50,623 bases of DNA from Psammoneis japonica (GCA_008632985.1 QPGO01000057.1:405346-455968); one strand, 5' to 3'. Positions 1-50,623 are shown, numbered from the stretch's first letter. The notes: generated by a model from the letters alone, not told the origin. Numbers and translations are program-made.

Positions 1-596
1 GCTGCAGGTGTGTTGCTGACACATTTTGTTCATGGGAGCACAAACTGTTTGTGGGTCAGTGGCTTGGTTTTGACACTGCATGGCATCTTTCAGGGCTTGT
101 CAGTCATTGCTTTGATGAGTGAAATCAGCAGAATCAAACACACAATTTGTTGAAATGATGCTGTCATGGGGAGAGTGTCGGCCAGACAAACAAAAAATTA
201 GTGTCAGGATGGTGGAACATCAGGGGCCAAATCTGTGAAGGAATCATCCTCTCCCACTGGCAGACAGCCCCAACATGTGCGAGCATGTGACAAATGGGCA
301 CAATTTGCAAACAAATGACTGTTCAAGTTTGCCAATGAATGACTGAGTTTTCAAATCAAGATCTTGTTGACCCAACCAGTGCAGCAAAACTCAGCAAGTT
401 TGCACCCAGCACTGTTCAGTTTGGCAGCAGCTGTCCAAAGTGCATCTTCTGCAATGGAGCGCTGCCATGGAATCTTTCATTGAACAATGAAAAAATCCAC
501 CTGTGGGTTTTCATCTGCCAAACCTCCATCAGCTCCAGCTCACAGATCTTTGCACAGCTTCTTGCCATGTGGTCTCCCTCACAACCCAAGTCATTG

Positions 597-715
597 CCCC
601 CCCCCCCCCCCCCCCCCCNNNNNNNNNNNNNNNNNNNNNNNNNNNNNNNNNNNNNNNNNNNNNNNNNNNNNNNNNNNNNNNNNNNNNNNNNNNNNNNNNN
701 NNNNNNNNNNNNNNN
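597..715. other. Poly-C run followed by an assembly gap (N 619-715)
   Basis: Seen directly in the sequence. Confidence 0.98.
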
Positions 716-999
716 TGGGCTCCTTGAAAAGAACTTGCTGGCTCTTGGCAACAGCCCCTTGCTCTGTCAGCAATGCTCTCAAGCCAATTTGCAATGATGT
801 CCATCAGAGCTGAGAGTCACTCCTTTGTTTTTTGTTGGAAATGGCAATGCTGCTGGCATCAGTTTTGAGTTTTGCATCTTGCTCAACATCAGCTCCCCAG
901 CAGTGCTTGCAGCAAAACTTGTTTTTGTGCAGCAAGCATGATGTTTTGTCCAGTTGTTTTGTGCCAAGCATGAGCACAAAGCTCAGAAACACTTTTTCT

Positions 1000-2500
1000 T
1001 TGATGCAATCTCTCACCTTGATGTGATGTCTCTGCCAACCTTTTGATCATTGGCGTGGAGTTGTGGTCGTGTCACTCTGGGCATTGCCCTGACAACTGCC
1101 AAGCATGTCAACATCCCCAACCTGAAAACATCAAACTCACAAAAAATTTCATTTGCATTTTTGAAAAATTCCCAATGGAAATGTTCATTGCAACAGTCAA
1201 GTGCAACTGCACAGATTTGAACAAAACAGTGCCAGACTGTCATGACTGTTGTTGCACTCAAGTCAAGATCTGAGACACAAAACAATTTGGTCATGGGGCA
1301 ACGGCTGCAAAACGCAAATGAAAAAGGTCTGCTGGCAACAAGCAAGCATGCATTTCAATCAGAGATGGGCTGACACAACAAATCCAAGAGTGTGCACTCA
1401 TCAGGTCAAAGTGCCAAAAACAATGCCCTGTGACTCATGCACCCTTTCTGTTGGAGCTTTGTGACTTGAAGATCTGTGCACACCTGGTCTTGCCATCTCT
1501 GCCTCAGCTCATGGTGTGGCTCACAAACACATTGGCTGATGTCGCTGGCCATCATTGCCTTGTTTCCCAGGTGCAAAAGCCAAAAATTGAGCCCAAGACA
1601 TGCAACTCAACCCAAGCTGCAAGCACAAGCTTGCCACATTGTCCACAATTGCCAGTGCATCCTGCACTGAAACTTTGTCTGTCATGCAAAACCCACCTCC
1701 AACCCCAATGTTCTAACATGCTCCTTCACACAAGTCGCCAGTTGTTGATTTCCCCCTTGCACATCAAGCACAGGAGAATGACACTTGGAAAGCATGCCAC
1801 CCAACAATGTGTCAACTGTTCCACTGATTTCCATGATCCCTGACGTCCAACTCTGCCAACAAATGGCCATTTCAGGACAATCCCTTCTTCTTGGATGTCC
1901 AACTTTGTTGCACTTCCAGCATGCAATCTTCTTCTTCTTCTCACTCTGAGCAAAGCTTGTGCCCTCAAGGTGTTGTTGGTGCCACAGGTGTCTGACACCT
2001 GCAACACCTCTTTGGCTGACTTGGGGCACATGTCAACCCCCAACACAAACTGCCAGTGCAGGTCTTTTAAGACATGCCAATGATCCTTGGCACCTTCCAT
2101 TGGCACCACCACTGACAGCTTGTTCCTTTCTTTGCTCCAGGTGTTGTCAGCATCCTTGCTGAACCCATTTTCCTTCTTGGCAGTTTTTTCTGGGATGGCC
2201 CTGCCACAAAAAAATTTCACCATCTCAACTGTGCTCATGAGCCAGTTGCAACAATCTTGAAGTGTCTCTGCTTCATCTTGGTGAATGAGTGTCAACTGCT
2301 TCCAAGCCTTGACTGCCTGGATGTGTGGGTTTGTCTTTTCATTTGCACCAAAGAAGATCAGCTGCTTGAGAACCAAACACCCAGTGGTGCTGCCACCATT
2401 TCTCTCACTCCTTTGCAACTCTTGTGAACTCCGCCACCCCTTCAAGCTTGTGACAAATGGCCTTTGTGCATTGCACTGCAATTTTGTTGAACACCTTCAC
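1000..2500 (-). mobile_element. Degenerate LTR-retrotransposon (copia-like) gag/pol remnant
   Basis: Zinc knuckle CWKCNKVGH...DCP (~1900). Gag-like segments HQDEAETLQDCCNWL and DLHWQFVLGVDMCPKSAKEVLQV (cf. QDYY and G.D.YP.T..EA). Boundaries approximate. Confidence 0.6.
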
Positions 2501-4637
2501 CTTCTGCATCTTGCAGATTACACTCTGTTTCACACAGTCATTGCATTTGTTGCCCCAGATCAACTTGTTCTTCTTTGATGCAGTGTCTCCTGATGGACAG
2601 CCCATCTCTCTTCTGGCGTGCTCTTCTGCCTCACAGGTGCCAGCACCTGCATCTCCAGCAGCCCAAACATCATTCTTCTGACATGCTTGCTGATCTTCCT
2701 TGCAGCTTCTGTGTGTTCATCTGCCTGTTGTCCCAGCTTGGCAATGGTGTGCTGCACATCCACTCTTTTGTTTAATTGTGTTCTTGCCCATCTTTTCTGG
2801 GACTTGTGTTGGAGTTCCATGGCTTGCCAACAGCACAACCTTGCTGCACCCTCTTCCAACAGACCCTCAACAGCTTCTCCACCAACAGCAAGGCCCTCCA
2901 AAAAAAAAGATTGTCACTTTGCCCTCATCCAGCCAGCTCATTCACTGTGATGCACCAACACAAGGCACACTTTTGGATTGCTGTCAATCTCCCAGCCCTT
3001 TCTGTTAGATTCTCACCAACTTCCCAGCCTTCAAATGACACCACTCCTTTTGAGTGTTGTGCTTTGACTTTTTTGGGCTTCTGTGTTGGAGCTTCACAGC
3101 TTGCCAGCTCGTGTGTGTTTGGCTGGTCTCACTGTCTCCCAACTCATTGTGTGGATTGCAAACACATTGACCCCACTCCTGGCGTGCATTGCACATGATG
3201 CACACATGTAAAATTCAGAACAGTCACCAATGTGCATCATGGGAAATGCTTGTGACGTCTTTTTTGACACAATTTTGTTGTTTGACTTGTCTCTCCACAA
3301 AGCATGTCAAGCACACCAGAAGACAAGGGCAGGATTGGCTTTTGTCAACTGAGACAATGAGAGAGTGCATGACAATGAGGTGCAAAAACTTTGAATCATG
3401 CGGCACTGTCCAGAAACATTTCTGGGTGAGGCAAGCAAAAAATCTGGGTGGTGACAATGATGCTGCACATGAAAATGATGCAGAAATTCACTGAGTGCAT
3501 CACCCACCGTGCACATGTGCAGAAAAAGCTGTGCAAAAGTTTTCCTGCCACAAATGACCAATGTTTGCGCATCAGCTTTAATGAGACTGGTTGAGCTTGA
3601 CACTTTTTTTGCTTTTGGGGAGGAACAACCTGTGTGCCCACTGTGAGATTTGTGTTGTGACTCTGACTGGAGCTTGGTTGCCATGTCAACAAGGTGCAAA
3701 AGCCAAAAAAAGAGCACAAGACCTGCAACTCAATCCAAGTTGTGAGTGTGAACTTGCCACACTTTCCACAACTTTGTCTGTCTGTTCTGTGAAAACTGCC
3801 TCTGACCCCAGCATTCCAACACTTTCTTGCCTCTCTGATGAAGTGGCTTGTGAGACCCCAAGTTTTTAATTTTGGGTGTGCACCCTTGCACAAAGATTGC
3901 ACCCTGGGAACCACAAGTTTGTTGTTGGCACAGCATTTCAAGGGGCCATTTTTCCGACCAGCCAGGCTGGGCCAAGTGGCACACAACAAGTTGCTGAGTT
4001 TTTTTGTGTGTGCAAGAGAGCTGAGGAGGTTGGAGGGCACAAATGAGCCAGTGCCAACAAAAGCACAAATCATGGCAACATGTGATGCCTCAACCTGTTT
4101 CACAGCATGCACTGGCATTGTCATCACTGCTTCAAACTGACTCCAGCAGCATGCTGCCACAAAGAGTTGGGGTGCGCTGTCAAAATCTGAATCACTGAAA
4201 AATCACATCTCAACAAAGAAGTGCAAGCAGGCTCAAAAGCACATGTGAGCCACTTTGAAGCTGGTGCAGCTCTGGGCAAATTTCCAACAAGGCACCAGCC
4301 ACCAGCCACCACCCAACACACCACAACAATGCTGTTGTTTGCTTTGGTGGCACCAAACAGGGGGAGCATGTTCTTGGCAGGACATTCTCACGAAATGATT
4401 GCTCAAGCATGGGCACCAGCTTTGAGGAGGTCACTGGGAGTGTGGAGAAATGAACAATTCTTCGAATCATTGTTCTCTCTTGCATGTGTCCAACAATAAA
4501 AGCTGGCTGGAGCAATGAAACGCACGCGGCGTTCCGCGCACTGCGCACTGCGATGACAATGACCCTGCGCCGCCGACAACACAAACATAACAACTGCATA
4601 GCCAACAGCACCAAGCACTCTCTCAAAAACATCGACA

Positions 4638-5314
4638 ATGCCTCCATTGTTGACTCAAGTTGCACGTGTCTCGGATGGGTTACCTCTGGTAGCCACAGTC
4701 AACACGCAGACAGGCTATTCGATTGGGCAAGAGGAGCAGCGTCAAGCCAAACAAGTCCTTCGTAGTCTGATGCACGGCTCCCCGTCTCGCATGTCGATTG
4801 TCAGTGGCAACAACGTGTTTTATTACATGATTCGGGAAGGTCTTTGCTTCTTGACCCTTACCGAAAAGTCGTACCCAAAACGCGTCGCTTTTCTGTATCT
4901 CGATGAAGTGGCCGATGCGATTCTGGCCGAGTTGCTCAGGGAATTCAACAAGGATTGGAGGTCTCAAGTCGATACGGCGGCAAGGCCCTTCCGATTTATT
5001 CATTACGATCCCATTATACAGCGTATCAGAGAGATTACATGGATGCCAAAGCCGTGTCATCGGGAAATAACAAGTTGCAAGAGGACTTGTCGGAAATTAA
5101 CTCAATTATGCGAAAGAATATCGAGGAAGTATTGAATCGTGGTGAAAAGTTAGATCAGGTTTCGACTGTTAGTAAAGAATTGCAGGAGCGATCCAAAGAT
5201 TTCAAATGGGGTGCCAAGAAACTTACTTGGCAAGCTCGTTTGCAGCAATATGGACCCATGGTGGCTGGCTCGTCCTTTGTCTTGTTTGTCTTGTATCTCA
5301 AGTTCTTTTGGTAA
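4638..5314 (+). CDS. SEC22: Vesicle-trafficking R-SNARE Sec22 (longin + SNARE + C-terminal TM); one apparent frameshift at ~5026
   Basis: ARVSDGLPL, SYPKRVAFLYL, ARPFRFIHYDPIIQR in one frame, then IMRKNIEEVLNRGEKLD and a C-terminal hydrophobic anchor in another. Adding one base at CGT AT_ CAG joins them. Confidence 0.92.
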
Positions 5315-5835
5315 AAAGTACCTTGGAGTAGGCCCTAGGTGGACTCGCTATTGATGAAGAAGAATCGAGGAGCAGCAGGAGTTGAGATGTCTACGCGTCC
5401 ATTGCAAAATTGTAAAATAAAAAGAAACAACTTAACGCACCTCTGTAGATACAGTGCAATCCTGTGTATCCATGTGCTGCCGTCAAGTGTCTCTAATTTT
5501 GGATTGAAGCTCCACAAGATTGATCATTTTATAAAGTTAACCACTTTCTGCCAAATCCATACTACTCTACTCTCTCTTTCTAGCTTTTCGAGCGCTAGAT
5601 TTGGAGACTATTACTTACAGTATTATGCTTTCGAATCACTATACCCGCATTCCGCATTGCAATTTTCTACCTTCGTGTTCTAGCTACGGTAGCACAATCT
5701 TACAAAGCGTTATTTTTAGAGATTATTCGTGATTCTGGTTCACTATAGTACTTCTTATCAACATGCAAGGCCACTACTCGTACGGGTACTCTATTGCGGT
5801 ATATCCATCATACAGCACAAAAGAGCTCCAGTGCA

Positions 5836-7148
5836 CTATGCACTAGACAGTGTCTTCAATTGTTCGTGTTCATCATCAAGATATGTTTCGACATACCGAT
5901 TCAAATACGATGTCCTCAACTTGTCCAAGCTCGCTTTTCAATCTGAGAAACCCGTTGAACGGAAAGATCCATTTGGTTGGCAATATATGCAATGTAGCCG
6001 GTTGTCCCCGTGTACCATCGTTATCTTCTGTGAGACCAAATCTCAATCGAATGAGTTGCAACTCCTTTTGATCGAGACTCTTTGTGAGGAAATCCTCAAC
6101 ATCGTGTTGAATCATGCTTTGCAGCGCCACATCGTCCGGCGATGGTCCCTCGTCCTTAATGACTTCTCGGAGTGGCCCCGATAGTTGCTCTTGATGGACC
6201 CACATTTCGTCTTCACCCTCGTCCATGTACAAATCATCTTCTCCCAATTCGTCTTCGTATTCTCCCTTTGTTTCAGCGTCCCAATCTCGTTCATCCGTAA
6301 AGGTAGGTTTCCCATCAAGCAATGGATCATACACTTCCACAGTGGATTCCACCGAATATGTACCGCGACTGACGAGTTGATAAAACTCGAGTTGATCCTT
6401 GGTCAATCCCACTTTTTGCGCCACTTGATCCAATGTGGTTCCCGTCCCATTCTTCTCCTAGGCGGAGTCGTTCCTTTTGCGCATGCTTGAGTGCCAAATG
6501 CACTCGTGACGGCAATCGAATGGGACGTGAATTCTCGGCTAAACAACGACTCATGACTTTATGAATCGTTCTTCGTGCGTATTTTTCAAACTCCTTTTCT
6601 GGATTATTGTGTTCTTGTTGTTGATTCGTACGACTCGTATTCTGAAAGGTCGCCATGGCATGCATAAGCGCCACAACACCTTCTTGTACCAAATCGGCAT
6701 AGGACATGGCACTCGAGTCCTCCACCATGGCATGACTGGAACTCGATGTGGATGAAAAAGACTTTGTGGAGAGCGACTCGAGCAATTCCCTCGCAATCTC
6801 ATCCACCAGTCTCAGGCCCTTGCGCGTGGAGAATTGGAACTTATGACCCTGGTGATGATCGTGATCCCAATTCCATAAACTCGTCGCCAAGTCGGAACGA
6901 ATATGACCATTTCCATCGTCCAAGATGGAGGCGTACACATTCTTGGTAGTACTAGTATCGTTATTATCGTCATTCTCTTTGTCGAGTGTCTTGGATACAG
7001 AAGAGCCGTCGACTGTTGCAGCAAAAAACAATCGACTACTGCTACTCGTTGTTGTACTTGTTAGTTTCTTTGAAGCATAAGACGAAAACGCTTTACTCAG
7101 TGGTGCAGACACCAATACAAAACAGCTGAATCCCAATACTCTTGTCAT
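5836..7148 (-). CDS. Nucleus-encoded, plastid-targeted sigma70-family RNA polymerase sigma factor; four apparent 1-bp deletions
   Basis: Presequence ...LSKA-FSS; region 2 LRLVDEIA and DLVQEG; SRPIRLP. Region 3 (L)GRE(P)TLDQVA after correction at ~6440-6450. Region 4 IRLRFGL...IANQMDLSVQRVSQIEKRA(L)DKLR read in shifted frames to TAG at 5836-5838. Confidence 0.85.
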
Positions 7149-7696
7149 GGTGGTGATCTATGTTTATAAGGTGTTATCAATTCGGCATGTTTGGCAAGCA
7201 CATCATGTTGTTGCGCGATGGCTGACTCCAGACTTCGCATTGCACCGTGCTTTGCATTTTGTACCAGAATCTATGTTGGATTCTACGTAGGAAATGCTGC
7301 CTTCTGATTGGCAGAGACGATCCGTGCGCCATCTGCCTCTGGTTCATGAGAATTCCAATTGTCTGTGACCTGACTATGCAACGGTTCCCATTTATTTTTG
7401 TTTCTCCACCAATTGTCTGTGCACAGCCTTCGTCAACGCGCATTATCTTCGCGCGCTGCCTTTTCACTCCCCATCGTTCAAAAAGCACGTGGTACACCTT
7501 GACACGGCTTGTGCCGATTTTTGTTCTAAAATCGGATACTCTAACACGGCTTGTGCCAGTGTGTGCCAAAAAATTCAAAGTAAAACGATAGAGAGTATAT
7601 TGCACAAAAATTATTGGAGTGAGACGAAGCGAAACTCACAATGATGCGATGCGTCGTTGTCGTCGCTTGCTTTCCAGCATCAACAACACCAACATC

Positions 7697-8844
7697 ATGT
7701 ATATATTCTTGATTCTTTCTTGCAGTTGGCTTACGCTCTCACTTGCCTTTGATACGAGCTCTCCGGTCATCGGTATTGTATCTCAGACGTATTCTTACAG
7801 CAACAACAGCAACAGCAGCGTCGCACAAAACAAACAAGAATCATCCGTGTATTATTTGATACCCGCATCCTACGTCAAGTGGTTGGAAAGCGCTGGAGCT
7901 CGTTCCATCCCAATACCCTACCATGCTTCGAAACAAGAGGCGGAAGAATATTCTACCAAGTCAATGGACTCTTGTTTCCGGGTGGAGGCAGTGACGTTCC
8001 CGAAGCTGTACAACATTTATGGGACTTGGCCATGGCGAGCAATAAGAATGGAACCTTTTTCCCCATTTGGGGAACATGTTTGGGATTTGAGTACATGATT
8101 CAATTAGCGTCAGGTACAAGCGATAATGACGGGCCATTGAAATCGGGATTTCAAGCCGAAAATGTCAGTCTGCCTCTCCTCTTGTGGTCGTCTACCAATC
8201 GCAACAACAACAACAACAACAACTCTACAGTATTGAAACGAAAGATACTGCGAGGCACCACCACAGCAGCAGCAGCAGTATCATCAAGTCGCCTTTATGC
8301 CAATGACGACATTCAACGCATTGTTACTAGACAACCAGTCACCATGAATAATCATGAACGAGGAGTAGAACCACAAGATTTTCTTGCCAACAAGCGCTTG
8401 ACGGACTTGTTTGTCGTGACGAGTGTCAATCGCGACTTGGCCGGGCGGCCCTTTGTCAGCACCATGGAATCCAAACAACCCGATCTATATCCCTACTTTG
8501 GTGTACAGTATCATCCTGAAAAGAATCCTTTTGAATACGGAACCTATCCAGGCACAAATACTCCGTATCAAGACATTAATCATTCTCCGACTGCAATTCA
8601 ATTCTCGTTGCATTTGGCACAATTCTTTGTCAATCTCACACGACACAATCATCTTGTCAATCAAGATTGTCGTCGTCGTCACGCGTATACTCTTCCAGAG
8701 CGGTATCCGCTGGTCAATTCGTATCAAATGATTTATACAAACATTCCATTTGAACAAGTCTATGTGATTCCCAATAACGACAACGACTACAAGCAGATGC
8801 CTCGTACGGCAAGTTATCATTCCACACAACAAGTTGCGCTGTAA
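7697..8844 (+). CDS. GGH: Gamma-glutamyl hydrolase (peptidase C26) with signal peptide; one apparent frameshift at ~7948
   Basis: PVIGI, IPASYVKWLESAGAR, NGLLFPGGG, catalytic PIWGTCLGFE, NNH, GVQYHPEK. Confidence 0.92.
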
Positions 8845-9352
8845 AAGCAATAGAATTCAAAGATGTCTCTTTCTCTTTTACGTCAAAAGAGGTAAGTTCT
8901 CTCAAGACTGAATTGTAAACACTGCTGGCTATACATACGTACAGAGCCTCAACACCTCGTTTGTGACACGGTCGCAACGCACTATTTATTAACTTTACTT
9001 CCCTTTCCCCCTTGGTACCTGTCCTTCCTTTGTTTCCTCAGCTCTATGGTTATTTGTAGTCCTCAAAACCGGCTTGCACAATTCGGCTTTGTAGGGAAAC
9101 CCAACGCAAAAGCGAAAGGACAGAAGGCGGTGGTGCTGTGGCAGCTAAACAACTCGCAAAAGGCTCTTGCGTTAGATACCTGTGTTCTTATGTGACTGAT
9201 AAACAGAACTGGGAGAGTAGTTCTCTGCGAGCCACTCTAGCTAGAGTAGAGAGGCCCAAAAATCTTTCGCGACACGGGACGCAAAAAGAAGAATCAGTGC
9301 ATAACTTATTAACTTTACTTCCCTTTACCCCTTGACACATATTTGAATCTTT

Positions 9353-26811: not shown

Positions 26812-26899
26812 TGCAAAGTGTGTGTGATGTGGAGCACCCAGTTCCACCCCTGTGGCTCAAAGAAAACACAGAAAGAAAGCATGCGAGCAAGCAAAAAAC

Positions 26900-35887: not shown

Positions 35888-36456
35888 GTCTCGGTGCTAC
35901 CTTGTCGAATGTTTTCGGTGATTTGGATTGGATTGGTAGTTGATAATAAAGAAAATAGTGCCAGATTCAAAGAACTATGTACCAACATTTCTTGCAAGTC
36001 ACTTACGTTATCATGCCATCACGATCTTGGTACTGTAGATCAGCAGAACTCCTATGTCAAGAGTGGCGTGTTCCATTCACATTATAGATAACGACCCGCA
36101 CGCGACAACCCAGGAGCCCTCGCATCAAAGACAGGCAACGGATGACATGGCACATGATCTGCTACATGAAATAGAGGACATTGTGACGTCCAAAACGTTG
36201 CAGGAGCGCCTTATACATCGCATTGAAGGCACTTATCGACTGCCATTTGGAAAAATCAGGACGACAGCAGGTGCTCCAACTGTCTGCTTTTGCGTCGCGT
36301 GACAGTTAACGAGGAACAACATAATGCGGTCTAAAGGTTAAAGGCATAACATTTATTACATTTTGCAGCGCCGCGCACAAATTGTCTAGATAACACTATC
36401 ATCCAATGTCTCGGCATCAACTTGAATTCTAATGCTACTGCATTTGCTCTTGATAT

Positions 36457-41000: not shown

Positions 41001-41601
41001 GCATCTCAAAAGCTGGTTTGTTGCACCCTCCAACCCACCACTGTGAGTGCACACAACAATTTCTCTCCCAGACAATTTCTGGCATTCATCAAAACCCTTT
41101 TCCAGGCCGTCCCTTCCTGTCTGCAGTCTCCAGCATTGCAACATCAAGTTCCATGCTGCAGGTGCCCCGCGCAGCAAATCAAAATCAACTCTGCTCTCCT
41201 CTCTCATTTCTTGAAATGCATCCAAATTTTTGGCACGCGGCTCACTGAACCAACGGGGTGTTTCCCGTGAGCAGCATTGTTGGGTGCCAGCGCAAGTGGA
41301 GTGCCTGACTCTGTCCCACCTCCACCTGCCTCTCCAAGTTGAGGAACATCATCTGTCACCTTGCGTGTGCATTGTCGCCAACACAATGGCAAACCACCAC
41401 ACGAATGTCCACCGAATTTCTTCCATTTTGCAGCAGCTTCTCTGTTTTGTGATGAAGCAATGCTGCAGTTGCACATGTGCCACCCGGGATGCAGACTCAC
41501 AATGGCCTCCCACATCCACACTGCTTCCAGAATGAAACGATTTTGCTGGCCAGTCGCTGCGCACCAGGAACTGCCGCCCCACATGCTCCCCATGTGGCAC
41601 C

Positions 41602-41994
41602 TGATGGGTTCCAGTCCTGGGTGGGACTCCGTGTGACATTGGGCCCGCAGAATTCTGCGTGCAAGCTCCGCAGCAAATTTGTGCTGCAATGAAAACACAA
41701 ATGATTGCCAACAGAAAAAGAGGCAATTTTACGAACGTGTCTCCTCCTTCATGCTTGGAGCACATCATTGACAGTTTGCCCGGGTGTGTTCTTCAGACAT
41801 CAAAGAACACACCCAGAGAACTCTTGTTCTCACAAATGTTGAAAACAGAAAGCCTTTGGCTTTGCAAAACAGGGAGCATGAAACAATTTCGTAGAATGTG
41901 AGAAATGCACGTGCGCGACATGCGACGCGATCCAAAAAACTGTTGATGTCACAGTGCAGCAGTGCAAGGTCCCACCCAGAGCTGGAACGCGTCA
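41602..41994. mobile_element. MITE-like element, copy A (~393 bp)
   Basis: Imperfect ~25-bp terminal inverted repeats (tgatgggttccagtcctgggtgggac ... gtcccacccagagctggaacgcgtca). Homologous, in inverted orientation, to 45391-45787. Confidence 0.8.
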
Positions 41995-42639
41995 GCTCCA
42001 CTTTTGCTCAGAAAAAATTTCCACTCGGTTGATTTTGTAGAAAGTGAGGCAACTTCTTTGCACACAACAAAACCTCTTCCTCTTTGATGCTGGCGGGTCT
42101 TTGCTCTTTTCAAGCTGTTGCTGAACTCGGCTCATTTTTTCTGATCTCAGCTGGGATGCAAAACATGGGCACTGTCTGGAAACCAAAGCAGGTGAAATGT
42201 GATGAAAGCTCCTGACAGCAAGACACATGATGCTTGGTCAATGATTCATTGGAGCATCCTGCCAACTGACTGGCCAGCAGCTTTGTTGAAATGCAGCTGC
42301 ACACAGTGAGCAGAAATGCCAGCAATTCAATGACGAGCTGAAAGAGGTTGTGTTGCTGACAGTCGGGTGTGGCAATGGACAATGTCAACAGCTGTTGCAC
42401 CTCCTGCCAGCAGCTCTCTACAGTGGAGTGGAGGTGCTTCCATGAACGCCACTTTCAACTTGCTGGTGGTCTTCACCATGGTCGATGTGTGCGTTGCACG
42501 CATGGTGGGAAACCATGCCATCTGCTCTTCTCCTGTGTCATGATGTCATTGGACCAGGAAAAGGAACCCGGATGGACCTGGGTTCCTTTTCACAACTGGG
42601 GTTGCATGTTTTTTCATGCTTGATTCTTCTCGGCAAGGA

Positions 42640-42915
42640 TGACAGAAATTGAAGGCAAATGGCAAGAACTCAAACAACAACTCCTTGCTGCTGTCTAAAC
42701 AGCAGATGAGTCTCCGCTCAGAGACCGTCACAGGAGCCGAAAGACGTGCAAGTCGGCACAATCGGGCCACTGTCATTGTTCTTGTGAGCCTTGTGGCTCG
42801 AAAGCAAACTGCATCGCGCGCGAACACGTGGAACCAAAGCACACAAAACTGTGTGCGGTGAACTAAACAGCGCGCAACATTTCACGCGCACCTGAATCCT
42901 GTTCAAATCCTGTCA
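42640..42915 (-). repeat. 3' LTR (276 bp, TGACAG...CTGTCA)
   Basis: Inverted termini, follows the polypurine tract, aligns with 49778-49947. Confidence 0.92.
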
Positions 42916-45390
42916 CTCCCCAGTTTGCTTGAGGAGCCACAGAAACAGATTCGACTTCGGATGGAATGAAGTTCCAGAACATGAGGGGGCGGAGAAGGTC
43001 CCAGATTTGGGAGTCACCCCAATGCTTGCTGAGAATGTCAGCAGGGTTGCGGGAGCCCTCGATGAAGTGGAGCTCAAGGTGACCAGAGGCAACTGCCTCA
43101 CGCACACGGTGGAACAACAGTGCAGTGTGTCGCTTGTGCAACTTGGAGTGTGGGATGGTGGCACTGTCTGCAACAACATGTGACTGATGTTGCGGATCGG
43201 GACGCCAAGGTGTCGCAGGGTGATGCGCAGGTTGACAATCTGCTTGACACAAGTCCTTGCGGCAACAAATTCAGACCCGCAGGTCGCAGTCTCCACGGTG
43301 GCTTGCTTCTTAGAGAACCAATCAGCCGGGAATTTGTTGAGGAAGTGGAGCATTCCCATGACAGAGCGTCCAGTGAGCATGCAATGGTGCAAGTTTGCAT
43401 CGATGCAGTGGGTGGCAGTGACAAACTTGCCAAGGGGTGGTGGAGCGTCCTTTGGGATCATCTCTTCTGCTTCGCCGCACACGGAATGCATCCATTCACA
43501 GGCCGGAGCAGGGAGATCCGAATGGTCGGGCTCTTCTGTGCGAATGCGGAGAGCGCCGTGTTGCATCTTGGAGAGGCACCCACAGACGCGTTTGGCACGA
43601 TCCAAGTGGCCTTGACGGGGCGCAGCTCGGAAGCTGGAGAGTGACATGACGGCCGTGGCAATGTCAATTCGACCAAGGGACACTGCCCATTGGAGTGAAC
43701 CAACAAGAGACTGGAGCTGGTGAATGCCATCGGGCCCCAGCAGTTCGGAAGTGTCCAGTTCGGGGTGGTCACCCTTCTCCAGAGGTGACAGGGTGTTGGT
43801 GGCAGGTTTCTCCCCAAACAGTCATGCGCAGCTGTCGACCATGCGCTTGATGCACTTGCGCGGAGACAGGCACAAGGTGCCATCAGGATCCCGGGAAAAG
43901 TCGCAGCCCAGATGGAACTCAATCGGTCCCGCACCCTTGAGCTTGAACTTGTGCTTTTCCGTGAGAGCATCAACGAAAGATTGAGGGTCCTTCATGGCAA
44001 TGGCGAGGTCATCCACACAAACGGCAATGTGTTCGCAGTGGTTGCCGTTCCTGTGCATCCAAATGTCGGGTTCGGCACGGCAGGGGAAGAAACCTTCAGC
44101 TCGCAGGCAGTCGGCGAAGTGCTCGTGCCAGCGGAGACCGGAGCTGCGCAGTCCATGCAGGGCCTTGTGGTTGACAAGGATGTGGCCTTCGAGTTTGCCA
44201 AATTTGGGTCCGGCTGCAATGTAGAGCTTCTCCTTGGTGGTGGCTTCAAGGTGGGCATTGCCAATGTCAGTGGCCCATGTCTCCAACTCGTTGAGTTCGG
44301 ACAGGAAAATCATCAGCCGAAGGCCATGGAGGGAGACCACTCCGGAGCAGACACTGTCAATGGGTGCGTCCGTGAGGTGCCCATCGGCTGCAAGTCATGC
44401 CTTGTGGCAACCGTCGTGTTTCACGTCGCACACTGGGTGCACTCGGATCTTCTTGTGTCCCGCAGGAGGAGTGGAAGACTCGGAGGGCCCGCAGTCATGG
44501 AAGACTTCGTGTTCCTCGAGTTGGTCCATCTCGAGATTAGTTGCGTCTCCCCATTTGCGGTTGCCGTTGCGTTCGTCCAGTGACATGGCGTGTTTGTAGT
44601 TCCAGGGAACTTCGCATCCGCACTTGTGGCAAGGTGCAGTGTGGAAGGAGTGAAGCTTGGCTTGGTTGGCCATGCGGAACAGCTTCTTCTGGTGCCTCGC
44701 GATGGTGCGGAACCGCTTCCAGCCATCAGTGTCGAGAAGTCCATTCTCTTGTGCATGGATGGTGCAGGTGACAGGGTTGTCCTTGGCGATGATGGCAAGA
44801 CGCTCGGACGTGATCTCCCCACTTTCCCATTCAAGCACAATGTTGTGGCTTGAGCCTTTCCAGGTTGGGTCATGAGGCTTCAGAGGTCCTTCGTGTGACA
44901 CAATGCGCCAAAATTTCCAAACAGCAGTGTCTTCGTCTTCTTGCTCAATGTGATTCATGATGTCGTTGCAGGCAAGGACTTCCTCGCATTCATCATTGTT
45001 GACAGAGCAGACGAACTTGGTGAGCTCGGGATTGCCGTTCACTTTCCATTCATGGTCTTCGATGGCCTTGACGATGCCAGCTCTGTGGCATTGTCCGTCC
45101 TCTTGTGGCTGCATGAGGAAGGTGCGTCTGATGATTTCTTGCGGATCGAAAACTGGCATCTTGGGTGTCCTGATCTCCCCATCAGGTGAATCGACGGAGT
45201 TGTCGTCATGGCGAGATTTGATGATGGGTTCAGGTGGCTCCCCATCAGGAGGATCAAGATGCAGGTTTTGAACGGCAGGATCAGTGGCAGCAGATCGTAC
45301 GTTGGACTGGCAGAGGATCTTCTGAGTCTCGTCAGAGAGAATCTTGAAGGTCATCTGGTGGCCGACGTGCTCAGCAATGCCAACAAAGTG

Positions 45391-45787
45391 TGACGTGTTC
45401 CAGCTCCAGGTGGGACCTCGTGCTGCTGAACTGTGACACAATCATTTTTGTCATCCGTCGCATGTTTCACACGCACATTTCTACGTGTTCTGTTGTAAAA
45501 AATTGTTCCACACTGCCTGTTTTGCGAAGCCAAAGGCTTTCTGTTGTCTGCACTTGTGTCAACAAAAATGCGCTGGGTGCATTCTTTGATGTCTAAAGAA
45601 CACACCCGGGCATGCTGCAAAGAATGCACTTCAAGTGTGGAGGAGGAGACACGTTCGCAAAATTGCCTCTTTTTCTGTTGGCGATCATTCATGTGTTCAT
45701 TGCTCAACAATTTTACTGCGGAGCTCGCACGTAGAATTCTGCGGGCCCAATGTCACAAAAAGTCCCACCTGGGACTGGAACCCGTCG
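45391..45787. mobile_element. MITE-like element, copy B (397 bp), inserted in the copia integrase C-terminal region
   Basis: Imperfect ~25-bp TIRs. Removing it plus 2 bp restores ...ELHG-H-FVGIAEHVGH in frame. Confidence 0.85.
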
Positions 45788-48700
45788 CGTCCATGCAACT
45801 CACCGGATTCGGACGGCCAATCGGAGTCATCGAGGTGGAAGCACACGGGTTCCCACCAGTGAAAGCGAAGCAATGGGCTGATGTCCGGGGTGGAGCCAGT
45901 GAGAGTCTCGAGGGGCATGCGCCAGTGGAGACGTGGGGACGCTGTGTGGTTGAGCATGAAGCACACGTGCATGAGTGCCAGCAGCCATGTGTGGGCAGGC
46001 GAACCAAAACGATCCATGACAGTGTTCGCCATGCACTTCACGGTCTGGTGTCGACGTTCGGCAAAGTTTTGGTGTTGCTGGTGAGGCTCACTTTGCCAGC
46101 TGGAGACAAAGAGGGCTCGTAGGATCCCGAGCACCTTGTTGCTGATCTCAACTTGAGCACGGTCGCCAATGAGTTTGGATGGAGCACCACGCTCACGGAT
46201 CTGATCCTCGAGTGTGTTGACAAACTCTTTGTCCGTTTTGGTGCCGCAGATGTCAGTGACGGCAGACTCGGTGCCAACAAACAGTTGGGCGCTGGTGCAA
46301 CCAGAGTCAACGGCTGGGGTGTCGGCATGAACGGTGTCAGTGGCGACAGGCTCATTGCGGCGGTGCACATCAAGGGTGGGGTTGGGTGATTTGTGGGCCT
46401 TCCCCAAGGTGTGCACCAGCGGGCATGCGGGCGCACTGCATGGTGCAGTCGAAAGTGCGACAAACCACATCGGCAGGTTGGAAGCCAAAGTGAGGCCGTG
46501 TAGATGACACTCGCAGAGCACGTCATCGTTCGGAATGAGATGGTCATCGAGGGCGGATGCGTGATCGGCAGACAAGGAGGCGGACATGATGGTCTTGTTG
46601 ACAACGACACGATGACGGTGGTTGCCGCACTCGTCAAATGGGTTGGCAGTGGGATCGTCCTGTGGGTCAGAGATCGCGTCGCACCACTGGTCGTCGTCAG
46701 TGACAGAGTGATCGAGGACGGAAGGATCCCATGTGTCATCACCGGCAAGGATGACATGGGGCAGGGTGTCCCATTCGGCGTCAGCGCAAGGTCGCATGGC
46801 AACACAAGGCAGGCCGCCCTTGATGTCAATTGGGATGACATGGCCATCAGGGGTGGCAACACGGTGCAAGCCATTGGGCACCTTGACAGAGCAATCGTTG
46901 ACATCCTGTTTGCACCATTCGAGCTGGCCGCAGGAATGAATGGTCTTGCCCTTTCCCGTGCATGCGTGCTGATGGAGGATGGCAATGACGGGACCATGCT
47001 GTGTCTCAATGATGGCACCAGCGGTGACAATGGGGATGTCCAACAATTGATGGTCGTCAATGCCCTGAACGTCGACTTGGCGAGAGGTGCATGCAATGAC
47101 GCAAACGTCATCGCCAGCAATGCCGCCGTTGGCCCCCACGATCGACTAGAGCACCAGTGCGTGTGGAGCGATGAGTGGAGGCAGAGCAAATGACATTGTG
47201 GTCATCAACGCAGCGGCAAGTGCGGCCGTTAAGTTCTGTGTCATCGGCAGGAGCGGGCAAGGTAGAGGGAGTGGCAGATGGCCCCGGTCGACTAGCGTTG
47301 GGGGCTTGGTTAGGAGACAACAGGCATTGCAGATCACCAGGTGGCAGTGGCTTGCGCTTGGTGAGGTGCACCAGGATGGGATTGTCTGAAGTGGCATCCA
47401 CATTTGGAGTGGGGTCACCAGAGTCAGCTGGAGTCGTGTTGGACAAGTTGACATCACCGTCACTCCCAAGGCGTTGGTCATGAAGGTTGGCCGTAACGGA
47501 CTCATGGCAGTTGCTGGCTCGCGGGTTGCGGGGAGGCGGATGAGAATGCTCAGGGATGATCGCCTTGGAGGAATGGGGCAACGAATCCCAAATCCGTTGG
47601 TGGTCGGGAGGGAGACGTTTCCATTGGTCACCGGTGAGGCTGGGACCGCGGGTGCAGGCAGCATTGGCCTGAAGGATGTCAATGTCACTGTCAATGTCGC
47701 AGAACACATCATCGGACGGTTCCTCGGAGCAGACGTCGTGTGTGTGTGTGGCGCGTCGGGGAGCTCCAGGTGTCGTCTTGGGTTGAAACGCACTGTCGCA
47801 TTGAGCTGCCGCGGAGAGGAGCAAGCCACAATGTTGATCGCATGTGAGGCTCTTGCCACTCTGCGTGCGATGCTGATCAGCTTGGTTCTTGACAGCACGG
47901 AGTTCCTCGACAGGATGTGCGGCATTCTTGAGCATGACGCACTTCTGTCCTTCAGAGAAGTGGTCGCTGGCCAGGATGAGTGCCTCGTGCTTGCGCAACT
48001 GATCTTGCCAATGAAGGATGAACCCGTGGGTCGGACCTTTCCAAGTGCCATCACCAAGACGTGCGGTGGTGAGGCACGTGAGCAAGGTGGAGGACTCGAC
48101 AGATGCGCGGGTGGAGGCGAGCACATGCTCGGACAAGGCGCGGCAGATGGTCTGGGCGTCAGAAGACCCCACATTTTCGCGAATGAGAGCCTTGCCCTTG
48201 TCGGTGAGAAGGATGCGTTCGAAGACAGCGAACATGCACTTTTGTTGTTCAGCAAAGAGCAGTTTGTCTTCAGGGCTGGTCGGTTTGTACGACGAGTCTA
48301 GAGTGCACTCGACGTCTTGGGCACGGGCTTGTGCCACAAGTGAGGTGTGCCAAGTGTGCCACTGCTTGTCGGATTTGAGAGCCGTGAAAGCGGTGGGGTC
48401 ACGCTTGATGCCTCGCTTGAAGTCTCGCACCGGGTCGCATGCCTTGGTCGGGTTGGTGACATGCGGAGGTGCGAGGGGCGAGCTGCCGACAGACACAGAA
48501 GACATGCAGTCGGGGCTGAGGCGGCAGGCAAGGAACTCCTCATGCGTGAACAACGAGGAGTCATTGGCAACGTCAAAGACCTTCGTGTGCTTTGACAATG
48601 CACAGACTGATCAGAGCTGCTGACATGTTCTTATGACCGCGGGGCAAAGGGATCACATTGGTGCCGTCATCGCACTCAAGCGAGTCGATTTGGGATGGCA

Positions 48701-49777
48701 TGAATGTGAACAGTTCTTGATGCGAGTCCGTGCCGTCGCGTGGGTCAAAGCCAAACAAAGAGGGATCCCAGCACCTTGGGCAAGCACGGTTCCAACAACA
48801 TGCTCAAAACCATCGGTTTGTTGCTGACGAGTGAGAACCATGGCAGACAAAAGTGGTGTCAGGACAAGCGATTCTTGTTGGGATGCGAAGGTGGACTTGA
48901 AACTTGGGTGAGAACAGACTTGACTTGAAACAGACTTGACTTGAAATCTTGAGCCACCTTAAAATCAGAAGTCGCCGGGCTGTGCCATCCCGTTCGTTGT
49001 CAAGTGCTAAACTTCCCATCCGGTCCGCAGAGTTGTGCCGGCACGTCCGAACCCGCAGCCAGCGGCACTTTGGGTTGCTTGCGAGCGGAGCAGCGGGTTG
49101 CAAACCCCTGCAGGCAAGCTGACTGGAGGTGGACAAGACCCCCGAACCGTTCTTGTTTTACATCGGTTGGATTTCCCGATCAGGCTGGCCAGTTGACGCA
49201 GGCATTGGGTGCTGTGGACGAACGAACAAACGCGGGAAAAACACCCTCGCCCCAATGCAGGCTGCAATCACGGCTGCTTGCTCTCACAGTCATCCTCGTG
49301 GACCTGGCAGAACTGCAGAGCACCAGTGGTCCGGGGTGGATCAGGTGCAATGGACTCGGTGTGCTTGTAGAGTGGTGGCAAAGCCGTGGTTCAAAGAGTG
49401 GGTGCAAGTTCTTGGCTGAGAGGACATGCACACACGTGTGTCTTCAGCGACGAAGATCCTTGAATGTGCAGGGTTCTTGACCATCAACCGTTGAATGGGT
49501 GTGCAAAGTGATGAGGATCAAGGGTGGACTTGGACATGACCGTTGATGTGTGTCTTCAGCGATGAAAGGCAGCACAATCAATCCAGACACACAGCGGCAA
49601 GGAGACTTGACGGTGACGTTAAATTCCTGCCGATGCCTGGCATTGCACGCGTGCAGACTTGCCGATGTGTGTAGAATGTGTGCGGAGGTCCACGCAGAAT
49701 TGAAATGGCATCGTCAGCAAATCAACGACGATGATGGCAGTTGCTCAATGGGTTGACAATGAGCAAGACTGTCAATC

Positions 49778-49947
49778 TGACAGAAATTGAAGGCAAATGG
49801 CAAGAATTCAAACAACAACTCCTTGCTGCTGTCTAAATGGCAGATGAGTCTCCACTCAGAGACCGTTGCAGGAGCCGAAAGACATGTGAGTCGGCACAAT
49901 CGGGCCACTGTTGTCATTCTTGTGAGCCTTTTGCGCAAATCCTGTCA
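49778..49947 (-). repeat. 5' LTR (170 bp, ~106 bp shorter than the 3' LTR)
   Basis: Same termini; ~150 bp colinear with 42640-42791 at offset 7138. Confidence 0.9.
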
Positions 49948-50623
49948 AAGGAACCCAGATCCGGGTCCCATGTTGGGCATGCATGAATTTGACTCATGGC
50001 AGTGGAGGGTGCGGCTGTGAGACCCGGCTCTCAAGCAACTTCAAACTGGCATGGCAGGCGCACTCTGGATGAGCACACAGACCACCGCTGCCGTGACAAC
50101 ACGGAGAAATTGTCAAAAAACCGCCGGAGCCAATGACGACATTGGCGTGGCAGATGAGGTGTCCAAACAATCTTTGTTTCTAGTCCCATTGCCATGGCAG
50201 GTTTGTTGCTCCATCTTTTGCTTGGGGTTGTAAAGGGGCCATCAGAGAACGGCAGCGAGTCGAGTTTTGTGCACACACACACCCATTGCGCCCGTTTGTG
50301 ATGCCATGATTCATGCCAATTCTTCACATGCCCACCACCAGCCGGATTTCCAGCACCCGCTGAGTCAAACTCCAAGTTTGACAAAAAGAAAGCAAGTTGA
50401 AAATCAAAATGGTGTTGTCAATGTGTCCAAGGCTCGCCACTTGTTGTTTCACTCAACTTTCTTGCCGCCGCAGCCGGCTCTTGTTGTGTCAGCACATTGA
50501 CAAATCCAATGTCATCATCACATCGTCATCACGTCATTGCGCCCATTTGAGCAATGGCGCTGACCAGACGAATCTCATTCAAGACTTTGATGAAGCAACT
50601 GCAATGCATCCAGCCAAGCATTC

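What the first reader, a model, noticed from the sequence alone, without database searches (positions are those of the whole stretch)
1..50623. Two erosion layers: TpA loss appears to outrun CpG decay
Seen: the structurally intact copia (42.6-49.9 kb) is rich in CpG but nearly TpA-free, whereas the more degenerate blocks (1-4.5 kb, 23.6-29.8 kb, much of 38.4-41.5 kb) lack both. Established: diatom transposons carry CG methylation, which decays to TG/CA. Inference: TpA conversion is a faster, separate process, and both converge on TG/CA, giving a two-clock way to order insertions.
Basis: partly seen in the sequence, partly recalled or inferred. Interest (0 to 1): 0.7.

Follow-up and report, generated by a model that had tools for sequence, protein, structure and literature searches.

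The report
TpA-erasing hypermutation of diatom transposons
In this diatom, transposon DNA has had almost every TA step rewritten to TG or CA after insertion, well before its CG steps decay; the only report found of such a TA-specific mutation process is one 2026 preprint on an unrelated alga.

Summary
All 43 of 43 500-bp windows in the three transposon-like blocks have TpA O/E below 0.18. The 53 host windows never fall below 0.31. CpG O/E in the same blocks ranges from 0.04 to 0.95.

The TA loss is mutational and happened after insertion:
- At 26 columns where at least 70% of 60 normal copia homologs carry Tyr, this copia has Cys 11, His 9 and Tyr 2.
- Its two LTRs differ by five CA-versus-TG double mismatches.
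- Both DNA strands are hit about equally.

CpG decay is slower: 11 of 33 CGN Arg codons are lost, against 20 of 22 Tyr codons.

The signature matches the TpA-only A:T>G:C hypermutation measured in Bigelowiella natans (bioRxiv 10.64898/2026.01.13.699255). Nine searches found no report for diatoms. Public metagenome assemblies hold other copia proteins with Tyr replaced by Cys/His, some only partly converted.

The enzyme is unknown. Adenine deamination is my leading guess; thymine modification is the main rival.

As a "two-clock" tool it is weak. The TpA clock is saturated in every block, so only CpG orders the insertions.

The parts
1..4490 (.). Oldest TA-free block. No recognisable protein domain. 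Contains an N gap at 619-715.
   Evidence: TpA O/E 0.030, CpG O/E 0.091, TG+CA 1.89. 0 credible Pfam hits in its long ORFs. Edge at about 4497.
4600..23500 (.). Host gene stretch used as the internal control.
   Evidence: TpA O/E 0.60, CpG 1.02. Pfam hits for LRR/CHAT/NACHT and HMGL-like. The named homologs of the HMGL-like gene are diatoms, with identity at most 71%.
23600..29800 (.). Old TA-free block with an internal tandem duplication (25406-26107 and 26115-26811).
   Evidence: TpA O/E 0.054, CpG 0.237. The duplication is 93% identical and has 8 CA|TG, 12 CG|TG/CA and 3 TA|TG/CA differences. No Pfam hits.
29900..38230 (.). Second host stretch used as a control.
   Evidence: TpA O/E 0.595, CpG 0.97.
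38300..42639 (.). Older TA-free DNA into which the copia inserted.
   Evidence: TpA O/E 0.035, CpG 0.40. Read contigs cover it at word depth of about 42-58, in the range of host DNA. Of the 29 listed variants, 14 are CpG<->TpG/CpA, 2 pairs are TG|CA, and none involves TA.
41603..41994 (+). Copy of a short repeat that also sits, inverted, inside the copia pol.
   Evidence: 80% identical to 45391-45786 on the opposite strand. Differences: 10 CA|TG, 7 CG|TG/CA, 4 TA|TG/CA.
42640..42796 (-). 3' LTR of the copia element.
   Evidence: Matches 49778-49934 at 142 of 157 positions.
42913..47145 (-). Dead pol frame (integrase, RT, RNase H). Tyr codons have been turned into Cys/His codons.
   Evidence: Pfam RVT_2, E 1.4e-17. 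A profile of 18 full-length homologs aligns its positions 47-1356 across 42956-47136. 2 Tyr in 1411 positions. At the Tyr columns the window has C 11, H 9, Y 2, other 4.
45397..45750 (.). 354-bp nested insertion in pol. It is the only stretch with an intermediate TpA level.
   Evidence: Profile positions run on across it. TpA O/E 0.20 against about 0.07 for the rest of the element; 5 TA where 1.3 are expected, p 0.01.
47108..48610 (-). gag-side frame, also stripped of Tyr.
   Evidence: 500-aa open frame. Tyr 0.2%, Cys 4.2%, His 5.0%.
49778..49934 (-). 5' LTR of the copia element.
   Evidence: See the 3' LTR. Differences between the pair: 5 CA|TG, 2 CG|TG/CA, 1 other transition, 2 transversions.
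49935..50623 (.). TA-free flank beyond the copia; the other half of its insertion target.
   Evidence: TpA O/E 0.048, CpG 0.63.

Best explanation
Two mutational layers act on integrated transposon DNA in this diatom.

Layer 1 is fast. A targeted process changes TpA to TpG or CpA (A:T>G:C) on both strands of the chromosomal copy after insertion. It runs until about 92-97% of the TpA expected from base composition is gone. It stops within about 100 bp of the element's edge.

Its effects: it removes nearly all Tyr codons, leaves few TAA/TAG stop triplets and few TA-containing signals, raises GC content, and kills the element.

Layer 2 is slower. It is the ordinary loss of CpG to TpG/CpA, most simply by deamination of 5-methylcytosine on silenced TEs.

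Shown: the direction of change, the TpA specificity, the post-insertion timing, the two-strand symmetry, the restriction to TE DNA, and the order (TpA first).

Inferred: that layer 1 is a host defence of the kind measured in Bigelowiella natans. Also inferred: that the chemistry is enzymatic deamination of adenine (A to inosine, read as G) by a TadA/ADAT-type deaminase recruited to silent or foreign chromatin. I put the phenomenon at about 0.9 and the adenine-deaminase chemistry at about 0.45.
For: Direction and specificity:
- At 26 columns with at least 70% Tyr in 60 homologs, the window has TGY Cys 11, CAY His 9, TAC Tyr 2, other 4.
- All 120 long homologs have normal Tyr content, median 4.1%.
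- TG/CA rises as the combined TpA and CpG deficit grows (Spearman 0.76).

After insertion and on DNA:
- The two LTRs of one element differ by 5 CA|TG double mismatches in 157 bp. They keep 4 shared CpG and 1 shared TA.
- TG|CA differences also separate the window from read contigs in single-copy TE DNA.

Both strands:
- Cys 11 against His 9, in the order CHHHCHCHHCHCCCCCCCHH. That is 10 runs against 10.9 expected, counted by hand.
- TG and CA counts are near equal in each block.

TE-restricted:
- 43 of 43 TE windows against 0 of 53 host windows, with sharp edges.
- Host tandem repeats keep their TA.

Order and rate:
- Tyr 2 of 22 kept against CGN Arg 22 of 33 kept.
- CpG O/E grades from 0.77 to 0.09 across blocks while TpA stays at 0.03-0.08.
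- The copia is less CpG-decayed than the DNA it inserted into (0.77 against 0.40 and 0.63), as nesting requires.
- Two of the four shown sites where almost all the read depth laid on the copia differs from the window are CG in those reads and TG in the window.

Target preference:
- Surviving TA avoid ATA/TAT: 4 of 74 against 542 of 1107 in host, p 5e-16.

Precedent:
- In B. natans mutation-accumulation lines, 230 of 231 mutations in integrated viral DNA were A>G or T>C transitions, and all of these fell on TpA. The rate was about 6e-7 per site per generation. TpA-poor coding sequences were enriched for RT/DDE domains. An ADAT2 candidate was named (read: abstract, Results, Discussion).

Elsewhere:
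- 8 of 149 representative homologs and 3 of 118 short homologs are Tyr-poor and Cys/His-rich. They come from other assemblies held by ENA, JGI and Logan.
- The 8 representatives, aligned, carry Cys/His at Tyr columns, four of them only partly. The 3 short hits were judged from composition only.
Against: - No mutation was seen happening. Everything is inferred from end states in one 50-kb window and one sample.
- All read runs found come from one sample and one study, which may be the source of the assembly. They are not independent proof that the bases are right.
- The three older blocks have no recognisable TE protein. That they are TEs is inferred from composition and, for 41.6-42.0 kb, from a repeat match.
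- No genome is held. No deaminase, TET/JBP or DNMT gene could be sought, and the family's young copies could not be examined.
- The preference for TAT/ATA does not obviously fit the anticodon-loop contexts of ADAT2/3 substrates. That remark is from recall, not from a call.
- Rate ratios rest on small counts: 3 background differences between the LTRs, 22 Tyr codons and 33 Arg codons.
Confidence: 0.6

Rival explanations
1. Same targeted, post-insertion process, but the chemistry acts on thymine. A TET/JBP-type dioxygenase modifies T in TpA on silenced TEs (5hmU and further oxidised forms). The modified base occasionally pairs with G, giving T>C. Because TpA is palindromic, this gives TpA>CpA or TpG.
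For: The sequence data are symmetric and cannot tell A-side from T-side chemistry. In dinoflagellates 5hmU is made by a TET/JBP homolog, lies mostly on repeats, helps silence TEs, and preferentially replaces T in TA and TC (passages of PMC11572971 read).
Against: No TC>CC signature was looked for or seen here; the loss appears confined to TpA. That 5hmU or 5fU is mutagenic enough is recalled, not shown by any search. No TET/JBP gene or modified base could be checked, because no genome is held.
Confidence: 0.2
2. One enzyme causes both layers. A dual A/C polynucleotide deaminase attacks TpA quickly and CpG slowly, so the two 'clocks' are one process with two rates.
For: Both layers are transitions at self-complementary YpR steps and both are confined to the same blocks. 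The B. natans preprint cites ADAT2 enzymes reported to deaminate both A and C in DNA.
Against: The layers come apart elsewhere. The metagenome relative L001 has CpG O/E 0.01 with TpA 0.49. The partly converted homolog P0264 has 9 of 14 Tyr columns converted but 13 of 16 Arg columns kept, with only one CpG-type change. CpG methylation of diatom TEs already explains layer 2 (PMC9998398, passages read).
Confidence: 0.1
3. RNA editing before integration. An ADAR- or ADAT-like enzyme edits the retrotransposon transcript, and the edited RNA is reverse-transcribed and inserted.
For: ADAR-type enzymes favour U before the edited A (stated in the preprint's Discussion). The element is a retrotransposon.
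Against: The LTRs of one element are copied from one template, yet they differ by 5 CA|TG mismatches. Sense-strand and antisense-strand changes are equal, 11 against 9. Single-copy old blocks and a non-coding insert are converted too. TG|CA differences appear between the window and read contigs at single-copy sites.
Confidence: 0.03
4. Artefact of sequencing or assembly, for example miscalls at modified bases, or a natural TA-poor composition of the family.
For: All runs found are from one sample that may be the assembly's source, and the library type is not on record.
Against: An independent re-assembly of the reads gives the same TA-free sequence, at a word depth of about 42-58 in the range of host DNA, with contigs up to 315 kb. 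No Tyr column became Arg (0 of 26), as independent per-base miscalls would produce. The same Tyr-to-Cys/His pattern occurs in proteins from ENA, JGI and Logan assemblies. Homologs have normal Tyr. The element has in-frame stops, so its composition is not under selection.
Confidence: 0.03

Closest known systems
TpA-specific hypermutation of integrated viral DNA in the chlorarachniophyte Bigelowiella natans (Mettrop et al., bioRxiv 10.64898/2026.01.13.699255, 2026; abstract, Results and Discussion read)
   Same: A>G and T>C only at TpA, giving TpG/CpA on either strand. It acts on chromosomal DNA and is confined to foreign or selfish sequence. The long-term trace is TpA depletion with CpA+TpG gain, and TpA-poor coding sequences are enriched for reverse transcriptase and DDE domains.
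   Different: The host here is a diatom (stramenopile), not a rhizarian. The target is a copia-type LTR retrotransposon, probably high-copy, plus old unrecognisable blocks, rather than a giant-virus or virophage insert. Conversion is near saturation (O/E 0.03-0.08, against 0.45 for the NCLDV region). A second CpG layer is superimposed. No rate was measured here.
Repeat-induced point mutation (RIP) of ascomycete fungi
   Same: A dinucleotide-specific transition hypermutation of repeated or selfish DNA after integration. It has sharp domain limits and destroys coding capacity.
   Different: RIP changes CpA to TpA (C>T) and makes DNA AT-rich and TpA-rich. Here the change runs the opposite way (TpA to CpA/TpG) and makes DNA GC-richer. 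Dependence on duplication, on a RID/DNMT4-type enzyme or on a sexual stage could not be tested.
5-methylcytosine deamination at CpG in methylated TEs (diatom TE methylation: PMC9998398, passages read)
   Same: Layer 2 here. CG>TG/CA appears as Arg CGN > His/Gln/Cys/Trp/stop and as CG|TG/CA differences between copies.
   Different: It is the slower of the two layers, and it cannot explain the TpA loss.
5hmU marking of TEs in dinoflagellates (PMC11572971, passages read)
   Same: A TE-directed DNA modification in another SAR lineage with a stated preference for T in TA.
   Different: It is described as an epigenetic silencing mark, not as a mutagen. No mutational trace is reported in the passages read.

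Membership tests
TpA-targeted A:T>G:C hypermutation of integrated foreign DNA (B. natans type) | Changes are almost only A>G / T>C transitions. | tested here: met
   20 of 26 conserved Tyr columns are single-transition Cys/His codons. Among family copies there are 284 transition places against 44 transversion places in run X1.
TpA-targeted A:T>G:C hypermutation of integrated foreign DNA (B. natans type) | Changes fall on TpA and yield TpG or CpA depending on the strand. | tested here: met
   TpA O/E is 0.03-0.08 with TG+CA at 1.56-1.89, while ApA, ApT and the other steps stay near 1. Cys 11 against His 9.
TpA-targeted A:T>G:C hypermutation of integrated foreign DNA (B. natans type) | Confined to foreign or selfish DNA; host genome spared. 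| tested here: met
   43 of 43 TE windows against 0 of 53 host windows. Edges are sharp within about 100 bp.
TpA-targeted A:T>G:C hypermutation of integrated foreign DNA (B. natans type) | Acts on the integrated chromosomal copy. | tested here: met
   5 CA|TG mismatches between the LTRs of one element. TG|CA differences at single-copy sites.
TpA-targeted A:T>G:C hypermutation of integrated foreign DNA (B. natans type) | Per-generation rate about 1000 times background, episodic among lines. | not testable with these tools
   Needs mutation-accumulation lines. A rough estimate here from the LTRs and Tyr codons is about 200 times background, on 3 background differences.
Fungal RIP | C>T at CpA, producing an excess of TpA. 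| tested here: not met
   TpA is nearly absent and CpA/TpG are in excess.
Fungal RIP | Triggered by sequence duplication. | tested here: inconclusive
   The copia family has a very high summed depth, but the converted old blocks are single-copy now. Host 102-bp tandem repeats are untouched, but they may be too short to count.
Fungal RIP | RID/DNMT4-type enzyme, premeiotic timing. | not testable with these tools
   No genome is held. DNMT4 exists in many diatoms according to PMC9998398.
Pre-integration RNA editing of retroelements (ADAR/APOBEC style) | One-strand signature, with both LTRs carrying the same edits. | tested here: not met
   Cys 11 against His 9. The LTRs are discordant at 5 CA|TG sites.
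CpG decay by 5mC deamination | CG>TG/CA transitions. | tested here: met
   Arg columns: 22 CGN kept and 11 turned into CAY/CAG/TGG/TGC/TGA. 14 of 29 single-copy variants are CpG<->TpG/CpA.
CpG decay by 5mC deamination | The cytosines are methylated. | not testable with these tools
   No methylation data are available for this organism.
Ty1/copia LTR retrotransposon (diatom lineage) | Two LTRs flanking gag-integrase-RT-RNase H in that order. | tested here: met
   LTR pair. RVT_2. A full-length homolog profile aligns collinearly. A 63%-identical hit is named Ty1/copia-type RT of Cylindrotheca closterium.
Ty1/copia LTR retrotransposon (diatom lineage) | Target-site duplication. | tested here: inconclusive
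   No clear 5-bp duplication at the LTR ends. The ends may themselves be mutated.

The most novel reading that the evidence does not exclude
Diatoms and chlorarachniophytes, and perhaps SAR algae more widely, share a dedicated DNA-level genome defence that is the mirror image of fungal RIP. An enzyme recruited to silent or foreign chromatin rewrites TpA to TpG/CpA until the invader has no Tyr codons and few TA-containing signals or TAA/TAG triplets left. It works faster than, and independently of, cytosine methylation. The enzyme would be a natural TpA-specific DNA adenine deaminase, or a mutagenic thymine modifier; I know of no enzyme of either kind identified as a genome defence.
Probability: 0.35. 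Interest if true: 0.9.

Novelty: new member of a known kind. Interest (0 to 1): 0.72.

Why it matters
1. It extends a phenomenon reported in a single 2026 preprint on a rhizarian alga to diatoms, a major phytoplankton group. It also extends it from viral inserts to LTR retrotransposons. This points to either an old, shared defence or striking convergence.

2. The implied enzyme would be a natural TpA-specific editor of chromosomal DNA. That is of interest for genome defence and for base editing.

3. Practical effects:
- TA-free DNA has few stop triplets other than TGA, so it yields long false ORFs in all six frames.
- Similarity searches cannot recognise it: no Pfam hit in the old blocks.
- It inflates local GC content.
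TE annotation, gene calling and LTR-divergence dating in such genomes need a TpA-aware model.

4. LTR dating that counts CA|TG mismatches as ordinary substitutions would overestimate age. Here they account for 10 of the 15 mismatched bases.

Tried and rejected
- No whole genome is held for the window. Genome-wide per-copy plots and searches for deaminase, TET or DNMT genes were therefore impossible.
- The look-up of sequencing runs listed 4 runs of one sample and one study, and no RNA holder. Nothing can be said about expression.
- The metagenome scan with the window's protein returned one locus, L001 at 48% identity. No DNA of the same family or of the Tyr-poor homologs could be fetched.
- Searches for close (>65%) protein relatives of the family found none, in either the normal or the shorter length range.
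- The old blocks gave no credible Pfam hit among 77 ORFs; two chance-level hits had E 0.004. They also gave no match to the 120 homologs by tblastn or to a profile of 18 full-length homologs.
- The Atlas search on a host protein gave no useful taxonomy.
- Earlier-findings look-ups gave nothing for this genome or sequence. The 'TpA' hits were phage cases of other kinds.
- Literature: 9 searches found no report of TpA-specific loss in diatom TEs. The library lacks most subscription journals, and bioRxiv supplements are closed. The preprint's supplementary tables were not seen.
- Rejected: GC-biased gene conversion, because it is not dinucleotide-specific.
- Rejected: drift toward host composition, because host TpA O/E is 0.6, not 0.03.
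- Rejected: selection on the family, because Tyr is lost and stops are present.
- A target-site duplication was not resolved.
Full report
**What is in the window**

The 50.6-kb window alternates between ordinary host DNA and three blocks of aberrant DNA. Host DNA lies at 4.6-23.5 kb and 29.9-38.2 kb. The aberrant blocks lie at 1-4.5 kb, 23.6-29.8 kb and 38.3-50.6 kb.

The host part encodes, among others, an LRR-CHAT-NACHT protein and an HMGL-like synthase. Every hit to the synthase that carries an organism name is a diatom. These include Nitzschia, Phaeodactylum, Cylindrotheca, Seminavis, Mayamaea and Thalassiosira. None is above 71% identity. The organism is therefore a diatom with no close sequenced relative in that database.

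The last block contains a full-length copia-type LTR retrotransposon on the minus strand, at 42640-49934.
- Its 157-bp LTRs match at 142 of 157 positions.
- It has an RVT_2 domain.
- A profile of 18 full-length homologs aligns collinearly from integrase to RNase H.
- A 63%-identical hit is named a Ty1/copia-type RT of Cylindrotheca closterium.

**Check of the observation**

| Region | TpA O/E | CpG O/E |
|---|---|---|
| Copia 42640-49933 | 0.083 | 0.77 |
| Tail 49934-50623 | 0.048 | 0.63 |
| Block 38.3-42.6 kb | 0.035 | 0.40 |
| Block 23.6-29.8 kb | 0.054 | 0.24 |
| Block 1-4.5 kb | 0.030 | 0.09 |
| Host | 0.60 | about 1.0 |

TG+CA O/E rises to 1.56-1.89.

The TE blocks hold 74 TA where host density predicts 932. 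All 43 TE 500-bp windows have TpA O/E <0.18, and no host window (0 of 53) falls below 0.31. No TE window combines low CpG with normal TpA. Edges are sharp, within about 100 bp.

The arithmetic also closes. Moving all TA and part of CG into TG/CA gives the observed excess; Spearman 0.76 between deficit and excess.

**Is the TA loss mutational, and when did it happen?**

The pol frame has 2 Tyr in 1411 positions, with Cys 4.4% and His 6.2%. All 120 long homologs, at 47-64% identity, have normal Tyr content, median 4.1%.

At the 26 alignment columns where at least 70% of 60 homologs have Tyr, the window has:
- TGY Cys, 11 times;
- CAY His, 9 times;
- TAC Tyr, twice;
- something else, 4 times, never Arg.

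The ancestral TAY codons were therefore hit by A>G on the sense strand or on the antisense strand about equally. The order of the two outcomes along the gene is random: 10 runs against 10.9 expected, counted by hand from the string printed.

The RT active-site motif reads VCVDD where copia RTs carry YVDD; the motif is recalled, and the residues are. With 8 internal in-frame TGA and one TAA, the element is dead.

The two LTRs, which are identical at integration, differ by:
- five CA-versus-TG double mismatches;
- two CG-versus-CA/TG sites;
- one other transition;
- two transversions.

A CA|TG mismatch is what an ancestral TA gives when each copy converts it independently on a random strand. Five such sites imply about ten ancestral TA in 157 bp, which is close to the 1-in-16 expectation.

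The same TG|CA differences separate the window from read contigs in single-copy TE DNA. Host tandem repeats used as a control show none (0 CA|TG). The process therefore acts on integrated DNA, on both strands.

**Order and relative speed of the two layers**

Within the copia, 2 of 22 Tyr codons survive, against 22 of 33 CGN Arg codons. The 11 lost Arg codons became His, Gln, Cys, Trp or TGA. That is a roughly six-fold higher per-site rate for TpA.

The LTR background is 3 differences in about 130 other positions. Against that, TpA conversion is of the order of 200 times background and CpG decay about 35 times. These are rough figures from small counts.

Across blocks TpA sits at its floor while CpG grades from 0.77 to 0.09. 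The nesting order agrees: the copia at 0.77 sits inside DNA at 0.40 and 0.63.

In the old single-copy block, 14 of the 29 listed differences from the read contigs are CpG<->TpG/CpA, and none involves TA. At two of the four shown sites where almost all the read depth laid on the copia differs from the window, those reads have CG and the window has TG. The slow layer is thus still running after the fast one has run out of substrate.

The only intermediate TpA level in the window is a 354-bp piece inserted into pol, with O/E 0.20 and p 0.01.

**Target preference**

The 74 surviving TA avoid the ATA/TAT context: 4 of 74 against 542 of 1107 in host DNA, p 5e-16. They are enriched for TAA/TTA. This suggests that the process prefers A followed by T (equivalently, T preceded by A) and is least efficient at TTAA.

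**Artefact and other mundane readings**

A re-assembly of public reads (runs X1-X4) reproduces the TA-free single-copy blocks. Word depth there is about 42-58, in the range of host DNA, and contigs reach 315 kb. The assembly therefore reflects accurate reads.

All four runs are one sample, possibly the assembly's source, and the library type is not on record. This is not independent proof.

Independent support comes from elsewhere.
- Among 149 representative homologs, 8 are Tyr-poor and Cys/His-rich. They carry Cys/His at the Tyr columns.
  - P0288: 13 of 14.
  - P0348: 8 of 9.
  - P0352: 9 of 11.
  - P0356: 6 of 8.
  - Partly converted: P0264 9 of 14, P0322 7 of 11, P0342 8 of 11, P0384 5 of 9.
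- Three control homologs keep 43 of 45 Tyr columns.
- All of these lie on short contigs held by ENA, JGI/IMG and Logan.
- A further 3 of 118 short homologs are clearly Tyr-poor and Cys/His-rich by composition; they were not aligned.

P0264 pairs 64% Tyr conversion with only one CpG-type change in 16 Arg columns. That is the same order of events in an unrelated element. Conversely, the one metagenome relative whose DNA could be fetched, L001, has CpG O/E 0.01 with TpA 0.49. The two layers are separable.

**Mechanism**

The pattern matches a 2026 preprint on Bigelowiella natans (10.64898/2026.01.13.699255; abstract, Results and Discussion read).
- In mutation-accumulation lines, 230 of 231 mutations in an integrated giant-virus region and a virophage region were A>G or T>C transitions. 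All of these fell on TpA.
- The rate was about 6e-7 per site per generation, some 1000 times background.
- It occurred only in some lines.
- The authors also found TpA-poor coding sequences enriched for reverse transcriptase and DDE domains.
- They proposed DNA adenine deamination by an ADAT2-like enzyme.

I adopt that as the leading chemistry, at about 0.45.

The main rival is T-side chemistry. Dinoflagellates mark TEs with 5hmU made by a TET/JBP enzyme, with a stated preference for T in TA (PMC11572971, passages). Oxidised thymines can mispair with G; that last point is recalled. Because TpA is palindromic, the sequence cannot separate the two.

RNA editing before integration is contradicted by the LTR discordance and the strand symmetry. 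Fungal RIP runs in the opposite chemical direction. Diatom DNMT4 is related to fungal RID (PMC9998398, passages), which might bear on the CpG layer, but it could not be examined.

**Novelty and limits**

Nine literature searches found no report of this in diatoms. The library lacks most subscription journals, and the preprint's supplements were not readable.

I class the finding as a new member of a very recently described kind. What is new:
- the host lineage;
- the target class (LTR retrotransposons of a probably high-copy family, whose summed word depth is about 1000 times single-copy, which the tool warns is not a copy number);
- conversion to saturation;
- a resolved order relative to CpG decay.

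Everything rests on end states in one window of one sample. No genome, methylation data or mutation-accumulation data were available.

The fast clock has stopped everywhere except in one nested 354-bp insert.

Noticed in passing
window 45397-45750 and 41603-41994: A repeat of about 354-390 bp is inserted in the copia pol, and a second, inverted copy (80% identical) lies 4 kb away. Both sit in bins of very high summed read depth, so it may be a separate high-copy small element. The nested copy has the only intermediate TpA level in the window (O/E 0.20).
   Followed up: partly
window TE blocks (74 surviving TA): Residual TA are context-biased. Only 4 of 74 lie in ATA/TAT, against 49% in host DNA, and TTAA is the commonest survivor (20). 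Two survivors sit in a repeated CGACTAG motif at about 47145 and 47293, within a local cluster of 5 TA near the gag/pol junction.
   Followed up: partly
window 38000-50623, both strands: Because TA-free DNA has few TAA or TAG, 22 stop-to-stop frames of at least 150 aa overlap 38.0-50.6 kb, across the reading frames of both strands. Gene callers would report many false proteins here.
   Followed up: yes
L001:1157-3579 (metagenome contig): A copia relative at 48% identity shows the reverse pattern: CpG O/E 0.01-0.02 with TpA 0.43-0.49. Either CpG hypermutation or a CpG-poor host, without TA loss.
   Followed up: partly
proteins P0288, P0348, P0352, P0356, P0322, P0342, P0264, P0384, P0489, P0468, P0455: Tyr-poor, Cys/His-rich copia homologs from ENA, JGI/IMG and Logan assemblies. 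For the eight that were aligned, Cys/His sits at the Tyr columns. Some show a strand skew (P0288: Cys 10, His 3; P0352: His 7, Cys 2, plus 2 Arg, which would be double conversion). Cluster members of P0342 differ by R/H and Q/R, as ongoing CpG decay would give.
   Followed up: partly
window 4500-4600, 29800-29900, 38240-38400: The outermost 100-150 bp of each TA-free block is CpG-dense (9-14 per 100 bp, against a host mean of about 5.7) while holding almost no TA (0-1 per 100 bp). The TpA-converted domain may reach slightly beyond the CpG-decayed domain, or these are young fragments.
   Followed up: no
window 9353-12193 (-): A 946-aa host ORF combines LRR, CHAT and NACHT domains. This is an NLR-like architecture with a caspase-like CHAT domain in a diatom.
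   Followed up: no
window 16530-17038: 102-bp tandem coding repeats (about 85% identical) lie inside the 805-aa host ORF 14987-17404. They keep normal TA and CG and diverge mainly by transversions. They served as a control.
   Followed up: partly
window 619-715: A run of 97 N (assembly gap) lies inside the oldest TA-free block.
   Followed up: no
window 25406-26811: A 700-bp tandem duplication (93% identical) lies inside the old block. Most TG/CA excess is shared between the copies (154 shared TG+CA in 695 bp). The duplication therefore mostly post-dates the TA conversion. 8 CA|TG and 3 TA|TG/CA differences arose afterwards, or reflect gene conversion.
   Followed up: partly
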